A stretch of DNA of 64,000 bases. It comes from a virus (lineage: Duplodnaviria; Caudoviricetes). The position numbers and the translations under genes are program-made. Each line of letters opens with the position of its first letter. Position 1 is the stretch's first letter. Positions 1 to 52,436 of this stretch are shown here, in pieces. The notes under the pieces were generated by a model, which saw only the letters and a program-made list of their open reading frames with translations, searched no databases and had not been told where the DNA came from. The DNA is taken from IMG/VR virus record IMGVR_UViG_3300021255_000152, positions 32,001-96,000 of that record, one strand, 5' to 3'.

Positions 1-3000
1 GGACAGTTTTACAAAATCCAATTAGCTTATAGGGACAGAAATGACGTTGTTGGTTATTTCTCAACTGTTGGAGTAACAAAATGCACATCTTTACCAAGTG
101 TAACGATTAAAGGTTTTGAACCTCCAAATGTAGTTAATAATAATGCTCCAGAGTTTTTAGGAGTATTCATGCAGGCTAAGGATGGAGATATTACTGAAAA
201 AGTATATTCTAGTCGTTTTATCATAACAGATATTGCGAACAATGTTATAGAAGATACTGGTGATGTTCTACATAATATAGAAAATAATCCAAATTCATAT
301 GAATCTGTTGATAGCTTTGAATTTAATAGAGATTTGAATTTTGGTGAGATATATAAAATACGATATATTGTAACTACTACTAATGGATGTGAAATCTCTA
401 GTCCAGCATATTTAATGACACAGCAGAAATCTTTAGCGATGGAACTTAAAGGAGATTTGCTTGTTGATTTAAATTATGATGAAGGTTTTGTAGATGTTAG
501 TATTAAAGGTTATGTTGATGAAAATGGAGTAGAAGAAAAGGGTAATGGAACTTTCTTGTTATCAAGAGAAGATTCTGTAAATCCAGGAGTATGAGAGAAG
601 TTATATAAGTTTGCGCTTAAATACGAATCTCCTACTAAAACCATTTTTAGAGATTTTACTATTGAGCATGGTAAAACATATACATACTCTTTACAACAAT
701 ATAACGAGAATAAAATTTATTCTGGAAGAAAAAAATCTAATTCTATATATGCGGATTTTGAAGACATGTTCCTATTTGATGGAGAACGTCAATTAAAGCT
801 TCGTTTTAATCCGCAGGTTTCTAATTTTAAGACTCAGTTATCTGAATCCAGAAGTGAAACTATTGGTAGTAAGTATCCTTTTTTCTTCCGTAACGCAAAA
901 GTTGGATATAAAACATTCCCAATCTCTGGATTGATTTCAATGTTAAGTGATGACAATGAATACTTTACTTCTTATAATAGTATTTTAAGAGAAGATAAAG
1001 AAGGAGAACGTCATGATGTTGAGTATGATAAGTTTATTCGTCCAACCGTTCAAAAAGATACTGATTTAATTTCTGAAAATATCGCATCAGAACGTTTATT
1101 TAAATTAAAGGTTCTTGACTGGGTAAATAACGGAAAGGTTAAATTATTTAGATCTCCTAATGAAGGTAACTATATTGTGCGCTTAATGGATAACTCTTTA
1201 ACTCCAGAAAACGGTCTTGGCCGCATGTTGCACAATTATAGTGGAACTGCTTATGAGTGCGCAGATTACACATATAGAAATCTTGTAGATTTTGAGATTA
1301 TTGATGATACATCTAGCGCAGATAATGAAGAACAAAAAGCATATGTTACAACTTGGAGAGAAAAGCGTTTAGAAGATTTCGCTAAGAATAATATACTTAG
1401 TTCTTCTGGATTGGATTTTGAAACTGGCGTAAATGGCGGAAAGGCTTCTAAGAATCTTCTTGAAGCGGATATTCAAGATGTATATACCAAGAATTTAAAA
1501 TTCACAGATTTCTTACCTGGAACTAGAATTAGATTAGTATTTGACTTTACTGGTGATTTTGATTCAGATGATTATGAAGAAATCACAATTGGCTCTACTG
1601 GCGCATATTTTGCAAATGATATTAGAAGAGTCTATGGCATTTATTTATTAAATGATAGTCAGACTTGAATAAGTTATCAAGATTATCTTCGTTATCAAGA
1701 TTTGAAAGAATCTAGAATCAAAGAAGCTCTTGGTGAAGATAATTATGCTGTTTATGAAGATATTAGAGATTTTACAAAAGATTTAGTTAATCAGCTTGAT
1801 AATGGTATCGACAAACAAACAGTAATGGATTCTTGGGTTAATAAAATTATTGGAACTTTGTATGAAGCAAATAATTACATTGATCCAAATACTGGCGCGA
1901 CATCAAATTGATTAGATAATGATAATACATGACAGGTCTTAAATAATTCTCCTTTGGCAAAAAGTGATGTTATAGGAATGTTAGTTTATTATCTATGGAA
2001 TGCGCAAAAAGATCCTTCTAAGAGAAATGTTTTAAATAATTTTAAAGAAGAAATCGTCAAGAAATTGCCAGAAGATGTTATTGCTGCTTACACTAAAGAA
2101 AATCCAAATTGAGCAGATAATTTTACTTTAACAACTCAAGATGAATGGAAGCAAGCTTGAGAAAAAGAATATGCTAAGGATAGAGAAACTTCTCTTAAAG
2201 AAGAGTTTTATCAGAGATATGGAGAAGATATTTCTGATGAAAGATTTAATGTCTTATGAGAAGAGGATGAGTATGAAGAAGGAATTACTTGGAAAGAAAA
2301 ATTAGAACAAGAAATTCAAGATCATACTTGAAATAAAGTCTTTATTAATAATATTACTGAATGGTGAGAATCACCTCGTTTAACCGCAAGAATGAGCGAA
2401 TTTGTTGATTGAAATACTTTTGTTTCTCTTCAGACAGTCAGATTACAACTCTCTGAATTAGAAAAGAGTTATGAATCTGCGGTAAAAAATATTGATGCGG
2501 TTAAAAAGAAAAAGAAGAGTTTTGAGAAAATATTAGAAGAACGAGTTGCTCAAAAAGAAGAAATTACTGCTGATGTTACCGCATTAGAAACTCGTTTAAC
2601 TGCTGTACAAGAATCTATTGAAGAAAAAGAAACAGCGATTGAAGAGGCAACTGCAGCAGATAGTAGTGATTTAAGTGTTTTAGAGAGCGAGCTTAAAGAA
2701 TTACAAAAGAATAAATCTGATTTAGAGAGAGATATTAAGGGATTGCGCAATAGTATTGTTAATATTGAAGATATTCTTGTTAATACTCAAAAATCTATTG
2801 ATGAATATGCGGAAAAGATTGAAACATATGAAAATATTATTGAACATTATGAGGAAGATAAAGCTAATTATTTGCAGCAAATCGCAGATAATAATGCAAT
2901 TTTAGCAGAACCTCCTTATAGTGAATTTAGTCTAGAATATAAATTCATAGAACCTTCTGATAGTTTAATTCTCTGGAACAATTGGAATAATGTAAAGACT

Positions 3001-5172
3001 TATTTACAAGAAGCTACTTTAAAAATGCCAGTTCCATGGACAAATATAAAGCCAGATGGATCCACTGAAACAAGTAATTCATATCGTTTGCCTGTTGTCT
3101 ATTCAACTGCTAAAAACGCAGTAAATTCAGCATGAGATCAGTTATATCAAACTTTAATGGATAAAACACCTTATGATGAAATTGAAGATGCTGTAAATAA
3201 AGTAGTCAGTGAATTAAAGAATATTCCTTATCCTACTGGAGAAGGAGTATATTATAATAACAATGGTAACCCCGTATATACTGATAAATATTGGTGAGAT
3301 AAATGATCTATGGCAACTGATTCTATTTATTGCGGAACGTTGCAGTCAGGAAGTGGAACCATTATTTATCAATATGATGTTCCTGTTAGAAATAATTTTG
3401 ATTCTATAGAAGCAGTACAAACAGATATTGGTTCTTATAGACAAATTGTTGGTCCAATTAAAGATATCGTTAAATCTGCTATTTCTCCCGATAATGGCGT
3501 TACTGAAAATGTGCGTGAAGAAATGACTAAGATTTGTATGTCAAATTATCACAAGCGTCCAGTTGGTTATCTTTACTCTAAAGAAGAATGAGATAATCCT
3601 ATTTATGACAATATCTTTGAAAATCGTAATGTAGATCAACAATATAGAACGGTTAGAGAAGATTTGAAACTTTATTGGGACAATAATTTTGATGAATCTA
3701 GAGTTTTTAATGACGAAGAATCTATGAAGCAATCACCATTTGCTTTATATGTAATAGCTTCTCCTATTATCGGAAATCAAAATTATTATGATCATATACA
3801 CACTTCTGCTTACAGTGATTTTACGGTAAGCAATAATAAGATATGACTTAAGTTACATCAACAAGCTAATTCATTAGATACTATTATTAGATATGGTGAA
3901 ATTAGAGATGCTGAAGCTGTTGTTATTTTGAACTATGGCATTCGAACACATTTAGACTGGGAACAACAAGATGATAAGTACAAGATAAATCATCCTTGAA
4001 AAGACTTCTCTTTAAGCTATGGAACGCAGATAGGTACAGATGAAGAAAAACTTATTTATAAAAATTCTAAGCAACTATGGGATTCTAATAACAAAAATAT
4101 TCGCACAAGAACCTGGGCTGTAATGCATTTGAATGACGAAACTTTAGCAAAGAAGATTGAAGATTTTTGAACTAATAATATTAGACGAAGAGCTGACAGC
4201 AATAAAACAGAATTCTCTATCTTATTCCCTTCTGGAGTGGTAGATTTATCTAATATAAATGATAATCAGTTAAAGTGGGTTGTAAATAATTTATCTGATT
4301 TAATGTATGAGTTAGAGAATCACCCAGATAAAGGTATTTCTTCATATTTCGCAGTTTCAGATGAACAAGTGCATGACGAGTTATTCCCTAATGTAGATGT
4401 AACAGAAGAGGTTGGCGCACATGTAGCATCACATCTCTTTGAGAAGTATTTTATAGACGCTATTATAAATCAGAGAAATGCTGAAGAGCTTATTACTAGA
4501 TTAAGTGGTTTATATACTTCTATTCAGAATTCAAAAGATAAGTGATATTCAGAATATATTAAAGAAAATTCTACAATAACATATGATGAATATTTGGAAG
4601 CATTAAATAATTTAAATGAAATTTGATTAGAGCAACCAAAAGTTTATGTGCTAGATGCTTGAAGCGGTAAGATTCATGCTATTGGAGATGATTATTTATA
4701 TGAACCAATTATTCGTTTTGATGGCAGTAGAATTGATTTAAGAGAGATTGAAAACTATTCATTAGATGATCTTGATGCTTCAATCACAACAATCGACGTG
4801 GGTAATGGCGTTTATGGTGAAATATTCTTCAGACAAGCAACAAAGACTTATGAGTTAGAGAAGATAGAAAAAGAAGTAGTTACTTTAAAAGAGAACTGAT
4901 CTACTCAAAAAGGCTTGCTTGACAATGTTCATTATTATTATCCTTTTGCTAAGGATAAGAACAATATATATAAATATACATCAAATCCTGATCAATATAA
5001 TAAAGATATTTCTACTGATCAAGAAGTAGTAGATGATTATAGTATTAAATATTTAAATGCTTTAGATGCAGAAAAAGAGGCTTATATTCTATATCTTGCC
5101 GCATTAAAGAAGGCAATAGATGAATGAGTTACTCAGAAATCAGAAGAAGTTTCTAACGCGTTGAATCAGTAA
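1..5172 (+). CDS. Large virion structural (tail/baseplate-region) protein, 5' truncated, >1720 aa under code 4
   Basis: Track ORFs 169, 766, 1702, 2743, 3310, 3664, 4237 and 4915 share one frame and are separated only by TGA (about 20 in-frame). The frame closes at TAA 5170-5172, followed by the RBS of the next gene. Coiled-coil-like segment at about 2440-2910. Confidence 0.8.
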
Positions 5173-5189
5173 GAGAGAAAGGAGAGCAT

Positions 5190-51863: not shown

Positions 51864-51932
51864 AATTGCGTCCTCCCTTTCCCTCTTTCAAAGTTTGTCG
51901 AATATACTAAAGAAGGTTATAATTAGTCTTAC

Positions 51933-52436
51933 TTAATTCGACCAATCATAACCCTCTTCCTTAATTAATTTATCTTCTGTTTGCGCGCAAGTACCAATGC
52001 ATATAGCATCACATTCATCTTGAGTTGCTTTTATGTTATATGTCTCTTGGACCCATAGCTGCGCGTTCTTTTTTTGTTCTGGACGACGTTTTCCTTTTAT
52101 CTGTAATTTTGATTTTCAAGTTACAGAAGGGATAATGATTACTTTCTTATTTAACTCTACAGCAGTCTCATAAACTACACCATAAACATTTGCCAATGTT
52201 TTGAAAGTATGAACGTTGTTTCCAACGGTTGATTGCATTTGTATATCTTCAAAAGCCACAGTATCTATATTTCATTCTGTAAATTTTTGAATCATAAATG
52301 CGCGAATTGCTACTAATCTATCTCCAATATCGTCCTGTTCGGTAGTTAGATGTCCTCAATCTTTAAGCTCCCCATCAATGAAGATTGATCATCCAGACAC
52401 TCTACTTGCCTGATCTAGTGCTAAAATTCTGGTCAT
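51933..52436 (-). CDS. RuvC-like Holliday junction resolvase, 167 aa under code 4
   Basis: ILALDQA...G-W-S, VAFEDI, T-W-K, DECDAICIG acidic catalytic motifs. 4 TGA; absent from the track. Confidence 0.85.

What the first reader, a model, noticed from the sequence alone, without database searches (positions are those of the whole stretch)
1..52436. UGA is reassigned to Trp (code 4) in a phage of a cell-walled host
Seen: consecutive ORF fragments stay in frame and are broken only by TGA, while true ends are TAA/TAG followed by an RBS or terminator. TGA sits at invariant Trp positions: W-HGGE in both SPASM enzymes, LPPYLTVYM-W-KR and FDASRS-W-TG in the gp10-like protein, G-W and T-W-K in RuvC, and both Trp of a CBM5/12-like module. 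The peptidoglycan hydrolases argue against a wall-less Mollicute (natively code 4) host. Established: stop-codon-recoded gut phages infecting standard-code hosts are known. Inference: the phage switches code during infection.
Basis: partly seen in the sequence, partly recalled or inferred. Interest (0 to 1): 0.8.

Follow-up and report, generated by a model that had tools for sequence, protein, structure and literature searches.

The report
Rumen phage reading TGA as tryptophan
This is a large gut phage of ruminants that reads the stop codon TGA as tryptophan in its structural, lysis and peptide-modification genes but not in its DNA-replication genes, using its own suppressor tRNA; this pattern has already been described for a clade of animal-gut phages.

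Summary
The window is bases 32001-96000 of a 138-kb IMG/VR phage contig. Window 1-52436 holds 124 in-frame TGA codons in 22 of 32 genes. Reading TGA as sense raises cover by ORFs of 200 aa or more from 53% to 88%. Every gene ends in TAA or TAG.

TGA means Trp, not Gly:
- It falls on Trp columns in homologue alignments (W in 120/120 RuvC and 115/120 Gp10_C homologues).
- It aligns mostly with TGG in relatives that do not read TGA as sense, and never with Gly.
- TGA plus TGG in late genes matches TGG alone in early genes.
- The phage carries a tRNA(UCA) whose acceptor stem matches a rumen Clostridia tRNA-Trp.

The replication block (window 52682-64000 and beyond) has no in-frame TGA (P about 3e-40).

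The host was not identified. Cell-wall hydrolases, terminase relatives found only in Firmicutes phages, and related contigs binned with prfB-bearing Clostridia MAGs point to a walled, standard-code host.

Size, habitat, a mix of codes 4, 15 and 11 among relatives, and the recoding pattern all fit the "Agate" phages of Borges et al. I rate it a new member of a known kind. First-stage notes on this same genome had also flagged the recoding.

The parts
1..52436 (.). TGA-recoded block holding tail, baseplate, tail-fibre, RiPP-like modification, lysis, glycosyltransferase and RuvC genes. It continues 32 kb upstream of the window.
   Evidence: 124 in-frame TGA in 22 of 32 genes. ORF cover rises from 53% to 88% when TGA is read through.
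50481..50552 (+). Phage tRNA with anticodon UCA (opal suppressor). Its body is tRNA-Trp-like: A1-U72, G73 and an AGGGGTA acceptor stem.
   Evidence: ARAGORN. Rfam tRNA at 62 bits. The acceptor stem and discriminator base are identical to the tRNA-Trp(CCA) of a rumen Clostridia MAG, 58/73 identical overall. DNA contigs of bovine and goat runs that cover the tRNA list no change in the anticodon among the differences shown; the one change listed, in the goat run, is C to A at 50517, beside the anticodon.
52682..64000 (-). TGA-free early block: dUTPase, FNT-like transporter, NrdG, NrdD, guanylate kinase, DNA polymerase III alpha and an SF1 helicase. It continues to about contig base 124154.
   Evidence: 0 TGA against 49 TGG in 3846 codons in the window. 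Over the whole block there are 3 artefactual TGA against 152 TGG, P about 3e-40 at the late-gene rate.
46891..49368 (+). Multidomain peptidoglycan hydrolase (GH25 muramidase plus two CW_7 repeats) with 3 in-frame TGA.
   Evidence: Pfam GH25 at 6e-32 and CW_7 at 2e-19. PDB lysozyme matches.
49382..49810 (+). Holin-like protein with three hydrophobic helices and a charged tail. It has no TGA.
   Evidence: Translation. The holin assignment is an inference from sequence and position.
49818..49847 (+). Near-consensus sigma-70-type promoter-like site. It lies ahead of two TGA-free ORFs, the tRNA(UCA) and a recoded GT8 gene. A terminator-like hairpin lies at 51261-51292.
   Evidence: 11 of 12 consensus match. 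Promoter-like sites in the region are no more frequent than in shuffles, so this is only a lead.
33243..33923 (+). Gp10_C baseplate protein with TGA at two strongly conserved Trp columns.
   Evidence: Pfam at 8e-21. W in 115/120 and 78/120 homologues.
51933..52436 (-). RuvC-like resolvase with 4 TGA. It is the last recoded gene before the TGA-free block.
   Evidence: Pfam RuvC. W in 120/120 homologues at one TGA, and W or Y at the other three.
41774..44210 (-). Two radical SAM/SPASM enzymes with 7 TGA each and 1 and 0 TGG.
   Evidence: TGA and TGG interchange with the orthologues in L001 and L002.

Best explanation
The window lies in a roughly 140-175 kb virulent siphovirus-like phage of the ruminant gut. 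In this phage UGA is decoded as tryptophan in late genes.

Proposed mechanism:
- The phage encodes a tRNA with anticodon UCA. Its acceptor stem and G73 discriminator are those of a Firmicutes/Clostridia tRNA-Trp, so the host tryptophanyl-tRNA synthetase is expected to charge it (inferred).
- Genes needed first (replication, nucleotide metabolism, a full sigma-70) contain no UGA and end in UAA or UAG. The unmodified standard-code host can translate them.
- Once the suppressor tRNA has accumulated, UGA-bearing mRNAs can be read to full length. These encode tail, baseplate, lysin, amidase, RuvC and the YcaO/radical-SAM module.
- Before that point most would be truncated. The first UGA falls in the first third of 25 of 35 recoded genes.

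Recoding therefore separates early from late translation and probably holds back lysis (inferred, following Borges et al.).

The host is most likely a cell-walled, standard-code member of the Clostridia.
For: TGA = Trp:
- Homologue columns at window TGA sites are Trp or aromatic: Gp10_C 115/120 and 78/120 W, RuvC 120/120 W.
- In the two standard-code relatives and one lightly recoded relative, window TGA aligns to W in 31 of 81 cases over 38 sites, and to Gly in none.
- Around the terminase gene, upstream of the window, TGA aligns to TGG in 406 of 688 cases in 45 relatives that do not read TGA as sense.
- In the recoded relatives L001 and L002, TGA and TGG interchange freely.
- Trp budget: late genes have 7.1 TGA plus 7.4 TGG per 1000 codons. 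Early genes have 12.7 TGG.

Machinery:
- tRNA(UCA) with a Trp-type acceptor.
- No release factor and no class Ib synthetase in the 138 kb held.

Partition of the genome:
- The early block is TGA-free, P about 3e-40.
- The only clearly annotated recoded gene inside the early block is a cell-wall amidase with 4 TGA.
- Relatives G010 and G011 (TGA) and G014 (TAG) show the same split.
- No gene ends in TGA.

Host:
- GH25, CW_7 and Amidase_2 domains.
- All 147 terminase matches among deposited phages that carry a host name are to phages of Firmicutes.
- GyrA relatives at 58-61% identity sit on contigs binned with rumen or abomasum Clostridia MAGs. All four MAGs tested carry prfB above the curated cut-off.

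Habitat: bovine, goat and sheep gut runs from several studies hold the sequence.

Literature: the same pattern is described for TGA-recoded Agate phages.
Against: - No host was identified. I found no CRISPR spacer match in 4 candidate MAGs or in 151 genomes of the family of one of them.
- Binning of phage contigs with MAGs is weak evidence for a host.
- No protein-level evidence for Trp at UGA is available.
- The timing of tRNA expression is unknown.
- The holin-like gene has no TGA, so lysis is not gated at every step.
- Several late genes use few or no TGA: the 834-aa protein has 0, the 2614-aa protein has 4 against 37 TGG, and the probable capsid protein has 0. Recoding is therefore uneven within the late class.
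- The contig is about 79% complete by CheckV. A release factor or synthetase could lie on the missing part.
Confidence: 0.82

Rival explanations
1. The code switch is real, but the early/late split is a constraint rather than a regulatory device. UGA drifted into any gene translated after the suppressor tRNA is present, in an AT-rich genome that had already dropped TGA as a stop. It has no role in timing lysis.
For: - TGA use is very uneven among late genes, and the holin-like gene has none.
- GC is 33-34% and TGA is never used as a stop.
- Relatives range from standard code through light recoding (G003, which has its own tRNA(tca)) to heavy recoding. This looks like gradual drift.
Against: - A lone cell-wall amidase inside the early block is recoded while its neighbours are not.
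- Borges et al. report a statistically significant TGA preference in lysis-cassette families of Agate phages.
- The split recurs with a different stop codon in sister lineages.
Confidence: 0.3
2. The host itself uses code 4 (a Mollicute-like or other UGA=Trp bacterium). The phage simply shares its host's code and there is no switch.
For: - Most deposited code-4 phages infect Mycoplasma or Spiroplasma (PMC11210395).
- The tRNA(UCA) body would also fit a Mollicute-type tRNA-Trp. This point is from my own knowledge and was not tested.
Against: - 12,001 early-block codons hold 152 TGG and no genuine TGA, P about 3e-40.
- The phage carries its own suppressor tRNA.
- It encodes a muramidase with CW_7 wall-binding repeats and an amidase.
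- Sister lineages recode TAG instead, or nothing.
- The candidate Clostridia MAGs carry prfB.
- About one third of genes are recoded. Borges et al. report about 90% for phages on hosts that read TGA as sense natively.
Confidence: 0.04
3. TGA is not Trp. It could be Gly (code 25), selenocysteine, low-level readthrough, or the genes could be pseudogenes or assembly errors.
For: ARAGORN labels the tRNA as SeC, but only because of its anticodon.
Against: - No Gly codon aligns to any of the 38 covered window TGA sites. W dominates.
- The tRNA is 72 nt with a normal cloverleaf and a Trp-type acceptor, not the long SeC form.
- TGA positions are conserved in relatives from other studies.
- Contigs from RNA libraries keep TGA. 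For example, a contig identical to the window over 42164-42581 spans a TGA codon.
Confidence: 0.01

Closest known systems
TGA-recoded 'Agate' phages of animal guts (Borges et al., bioRxiv 10.1101/2021.08.26.457843; published in Nat Microbiol 2022)
   Same: - Genome size class: about 127-154 kb in the paper, and 138 kb here at about 79% completeness.
- Cattle and other animal gut habitat.
- TGA = Trp.
- Structural and lysis genes recoded, with replication machinery in standard code.
- Suppressor tRNA(UCA).
- Close relatives using codes 11, 15 and 4.
- TGA given up as a stop codon.
   Different: - I could not place the terminase in their tree, so clade membership is inferred from shared traits.
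- Here the suppressor tRNA sits just downstream of the lysin-holin pair, in a small TGA-free unit.
- The recoded set includes a YcaO/radical-SAM module that I did not see mentioned in the passages I read.
phAss-1 / 'Phassvirus' group (PMC10607447)
   Same: - The terminase is 44% identical.
- About 136 kb genome.
- Very long tape-measure gene.
- Late genes recoded.
- Predicted Clostridia host.
- Related to Enterococcus phage EF1.
   Different: phAss-1 recodes TAG, not TGA, and comes from the human gut.
TAG- or TGA-recoded crAss-like phages and Lak megaphages (Yutin 2021 and Devoto 2019, from my own knowledge; Peters 2022, PMC9523058)
   Same: Stop codon read as sense in late genes, suppressor tRNA, standard-code host.
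   Different: They are unrelated lineages that infect Bacteroidetes. Proteomic proof exists only for code 15.
Phages of Mycoplasma and Spiroplasma (native code 4)
   Same: UGA = Trp.
   Different: Those phages share the host's code in all gene classes and have no need for wall hydrolases. Here the early genes avoid UGA and wall hydrolases are present.

Membership tests
Alternatively coded (code 4) phage on a standard-code host | Many genes are broken by in-frame TGA and restored to full length when TGA is read as sense | tested here: met
   Orthologues in the standard-code relatives are single open frames.
Alternatively coded (code 4) phage on a standard-code host | TGA aligns with tryptophan in homologues | tested here: met
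   Trp budget.
Alternatively coded (code 4) phage on a standard-code host | Phage-encoded suppressor tRNA for the recoded stop codon | tested here: met
   tRNA(UCA) at 50481-50552.
Alternatively coded (code 4) phage on a standard-code host | Recoding confined to part of the genome: late and lysis genes recoded, early genes readable under the standard code | tested here: met
Alternatively coded (code 4) phage on a standard-code host | The host uses the standard code (RF2 present, TGA is a stop) | tested here: inconclusive
   The host was not identified. Candidate Clostridia MAGs that hold related phage contigs have prfB. No CRISPR link was found.
Alternatively coded (code 4) phage on a standard-code host | Trp is inserted at UGA in the protein | not testable with these tools
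   This needs metaproteomics or expression experiments.
Agate clade (Borges et al.) | Placement in the Agate terminase clade with at least 95% bootstrap support | not testable with these tools
   Their reference sequences are not held under that name. Terminase relatives in IMG/VR number 124 or more.
Agate clade (Borges et al.) | The clade mixes code 11, code 15 and code 4 genomes of roughly 130-190 kb from animal guts | tested here: met
   Of 52 related loci, 7 classed as code 4, 30 as code 15 and 15 as standard by ORF cover. One of the 15, G003, later proved lightly TGA-recoded. Contig sizes are and habitat.
Phage of a natively code-4 host | In-frame TGA spread over all gene classes | tested here: not met
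   The early block has no genuine in-frame TGA.
Code 25 phage (TGA = Gly) of Absconditabacteria or Gracilibacteria | TGA aligns with glycine | tested here: not met
   0 of 38 covered sites align with Gly. Gly is never the commonest residue at a TGA column of the Gp10_C and RuvC homologue alignments.

The most novel reading that the evidence does not exclude
The 138 kb held carry no release factor 1 and no tryptophanyl-tRNA synthetase, unlike the Jade 'code-change module'. This phage may therefore overcome host RF2 by a factor not yet recognised. Candidates are one of the unannotated TGA-free early proteins, or the small TGA-free unit that precedes the tRNA(UCA) (a 61-aa ORF and an Hsp20-like protein). 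The phage's own tmRNA might help clear ribosomes that stall or terminate at UGA during the transition.
Probability: 0.1. Interest if true: 0.7.

Novelty: new member of a known kind. Interest (0 to 1): 0.3.

Why it matters
The practical point is annotation. Under the default code two thirds of this phage's late genes are shredded. Its tail proteins, lysin and a YcaO/radical-SAM module become visible only under code 4.

Biologically it adds one more well-resolved example of a Firmicutes-type phage that separates early from late translation by stop-codon reassignment. Sister genomes using TAG, TGA or neither lie within one terminase clade, and these could serve for comparative study of how a code change begins.

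It does not open a new question. The phenomenon, the gene pattern and the proposed role in delaying lysis are all published.

Tried and rejected
- CRISPR host assignment. I compared 20-kb stretches of the window by BLAST against four candidate Clostridia MAGs and against 151 genomes of the family of one of them. This gave only short AT-rich matches of 81-94% identity with no repeat arrays beside them. No host link resulted.
- GyrA as a host marker. Apart from phage-like contigs binned with Clostridia MAGs, the matches were about 35-47% identical and spread over Campylobacterota, Desulfobacterota and Firmicutes. This partly reflects AT-rich search peptides and is not informative.
- Base after the codon. 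TGA is followed by C less often than other codons are (6% against 12%, p = 0.01). The difference from TGG is not significant (p = 0.10). I see no clear anti-termination context.
- Theta or HDV-like ribozyme beside the suppressor tRNA. Nothing but the tRNA was found at E <= 1 in 49800-51000.
- PDB alignment of the lysin. The three TGA lie outside the GH25 match, so it says nothing about the code.
- The E. coli RuvC alignment was too weak to use.
- RNA-library contigs are deepest over 49341-50674, the unit ahead of the tRNA, in two libraries. Contig depth cannot rank expression and DNA carry-over is not excluded, so I do not use this.
- Release factor and tRNA synthetase searches of the contig were negative. 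The contig is incomplete, so this does not show that the phage lacks them.
- The sigma-70 promoter scan found 34 sites against 32.7 in shuffles. Promoter claims are leads only.
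Full report
**What the window is.** The window is bases 32001-96000 of a single 138,028-bp IMG/VR virus record. The record is linear and CheckV puts it at 79% complete. GC content is 33-34%. The contig also carries 23 ordinary tRNA genes and a tmRNA near its right end. Upstream of the window lie a terminase, a portal and virion proteins. A 2720-aa gene there is probably the tape measure; this is an inference from its size and position.

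**Checking the observation.**
- Under code 11 the left 52 kb of the window breaks into fragments. With TGA read as sense it gives frames of 1723 (open at the window edge), 1125, 2006, 2614 and 1311 aa and a tight gene array.
- Cover of window 1-52436 by ORFs of 200 aa or more rises from 53% to 88%. Reading TAG through instead gives 55%. The right part of the window does not change.
- In my greedy code-4 gene list, 22 of 32 genes in that block carry 124 in-frame TGA. All end in TAA or TAG.
- The recoded block extends beyond the window's left edge to the start of the contig. Over the whole block there are 190 TGA in 35 of 53 genes.

**Which amino acid TGA encodes.** Four lines agree on Trp.
1. 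*Broad homologue sets, searched with X at every TGA.* In the Gp10_C baseplate protein, the TGA after LPPYLTVYM aligns to W in 115 of 120 homologues and the one after ASRS to W in 78 of 120. In RuvC, the T-x-K site is W in 120 of 120, and the other three sites are W, Y or F. In the radical SAM/SPASM enzyme, one site is W in 9 of 13 distant homologues.
2. *Relatives that do not read TGA as sense.* The terminase finds 124 or more related IMG/VR loci.
   - By ORF cover these fall into TGA-recoded, TAG-recoded and standard-code groups.
   - Around the terminase, our TGA aligns to TGG in 137 of 234 cases in the 15 loci classed as standard code and in 269 of 454 in the TAG-recoded ones. F and Y come next, and no Gly codon is among the ten commonest. 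Our own TGG aligns to TGG in 68-73% of cases.
   - For the window itself I fetched three relatives. G001 and G005 use TGA as a true stop. G003 is lightly recoded.
   - Thirty-eight window TGA sites were covered. W was the aligned residue in 31 of 81 cases and Gly in none.
   - In two recoded relatives that share the YcaO/radical-SAM module, TGA and TGG interchange freely: window TGG pairs with TGA 23 times and with TGG 25 times.
3. *The Trp budget.* Late genes have 7.1 TGA plus 7.4 TGG per 1000 codons. Early genes have 12.7 TGG and no TGA.
4. *The tRNA.* A 72-nt tRNA with anticodon UCA lies at 50481-50552. Its acceptor stem and G73 are identical to those of the tRNA-Trp(CCA) of a rumen Clostridia MAG. 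Overall identity is 58/73, against 48/73 to the phage's own tRNA-Trp(CCA).

**The partition.**
- From window 52682 to about contig base 124154, all on the minus strand, lie the early genes: dUTPase, NrdG, NrdD, guanylate kinase, DNA polymerase III alpha, helicases, RecJ, DnaB, ligase, gyrase A and B, RNase H and a full sigma-70.
- These hold 152 TGG and three TGA. Two of the three lie at codons 3 and 18 of over-extended ORFs and the third is in a doubtful small ORF. At the late-gene rate the probability of this is about 3e-40.
- No gene on the contig uses TGA as its stop.
- Inside the early block, a cell-wall amidase (Amidase_2) carries 4 TGA. An unannotated 173-aa ORF with 7 TGA, possibly spurious, is the only other exception.
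- The same split is seen in a 161-kb and a complete 167-kb TGA-recoded relative, and in a TAG-recoded relative. The polymerase has no or one internal stop, while the structural orthologue has many.

**Host and habitat.**
- The sequence is held by bovine, goat and sheep gut runs from several studies.
- The phage encodes a GH25 muramidase with CW_7 repeats, followed by a holin-like protein, and also the amidase.
- All 147 terminase matches among deposited phages that carry a host name are to phages of Firmicutes. The closest are Enterococcus, Geobacillus and Alicyclobacillus phages and the TAG-recoded phAss-1.
- GyrA relatives at 58-61% identity sit on contigs binned with rumen or abomasum Clostridia MAGs. 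All four MAGs tested carry prfB above the curated cut-off.
- I found no CRISPR spacer.
- A walled, standard-code Clostridia-type host is therefore likely but not shown.

**Mechanism.**
- *Shown:* the codon meaning, the tRNA, the partition and the absence of TGA stops.
- *Inferred:*
  - The host TrpRS charges the tRNA.
  - The tRNA accumulates after early translation.
  - UGA-bearing messages are truncated until then. The first TGA falls in the first third of 25 of 35 recoded genes.
  - This delays virion and lysis proteins.
- The tRNA lies 1.1 kb downstream of the lysin gene. It follows a near-consensus promoter-like site and two TGA-free ORFs, but promoter-like sites are no commoner there than in shuffles.
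- No RF1 or TrpRS was found in the 138 kb held.
- No ribozyme was found beside the tRNA.
- Contigs from RNA libraries of the source samples keep TGA unchanged. This argues against editing, although DNA carry-over cannot be excluded.

**Comparison with what is known.**
- Borges et al. describe TGA-recoded "Agate" phages of about 127-154 kb from cattle, pig and tortoise guts. Structural and lysis genes are recoded, replication genes are in standard code, and suppressor tRNAs are present. Close relatives use codes 11, 15 and 4, and TGA has been lost as a stop.
- Every trait I could test matches. The terminase tree placement could not be tested.
- phAss-1 is a TAG-recoded cousin with a predicted Clostridia host.
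- Code-4 phages outside Mollicute hosts are uncommon but catalogued.

**Verdict.** The finding is a new member of a known kind.

Noticed in passing
window 38042-46734: A phage-borne YcaO cyclodehydratase sits beside a minus-strand set of three radical SAM enzymes (two with SPASM domains), a U32 peptidase-like protein and small ORFs. All but the YcaO gene, the first radical SAM gene and two small ORFs are heavily TGA-recoded. The same module is conserved in two other recoded phage contigs (L001, L002). It looks like a RiPP-type or protein-modification system. Earlier first-stage notes flag it as well.
   Followed up: partly
L007:8742-9054 (contig 132742-133054, outside the window): The phage carries a full-length tmRNA (Rfam 74 bits, all 374 model positions) inside its tRNA array. 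Its role in a phage that reads a stop codon as sense is unexplored.
   Followed up: no
L006:3405-4034 (contig 116405-117034, outside the window): An N-acetylmuramoyl-L-alanine amidase gene with 4 in-frame TGA sits alone among TGA-free early genes. It is a lysis-type gene singled out for recoding.
   Followed up: partly
L204:1452-1547 (G003, a complete 135.8-kb relative with terminal repeats): A relative that looks nearly standard-code by ORF cover has a 96-nt tRNA(tca) directly beside tRNA-Trp(cca). It also has a handful of long late genes with 2-5 mid-gene TGA. This may be an early stage of recoding, and it suggests the suppressor arose by duplication of tRNA-Trp.
   Followed up: partly
G006:C31:115-1197 (sheep rumen Clostridia MAG): This MAG holds two prfB genes above the cut-off. 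One has an in-frame TAG. It may be a release factor 2 carried by a TAG-recoded phage contig binned with the MAG, as reported for TAG-recoded Agate phages.
   Followed up: no
window 54851-55411 and 55411-58178: The early block encodes a short formate/nitrite-transporter-family protein (186 aa) next to the anaerobic ribonucleotide reductase NrdD and its activase. This fits an anaerobic host. A transporter of this family seemed to me an unusual phage cargo; I did not check how common it is.
   Followed up: no
L006:7676-8713 and L003:1158-2315 (outside the window): There are two phage sigma factors. One is a TGA-free full sigma-70 (regions 1.2-4) in the early block. The other is a recoded sigma-like protein (3 TGA, the first at codon 242) at the head of the late block. 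This suggests a transcriptional cascade layered on the translational one.
   Followed up: no
window 17797-25641 and 25963-28467: Within the recoded block a 2614-aa protein (BspA-type LRR, weak CotH match) uses TGG 37 times and TGA 4 times. An 834-aa protein uses TGG 11 times and TGA never. Neighbouring genes use TGA for most Trp codons. Codon choice is strongly gene-specific.
   Followed up: no
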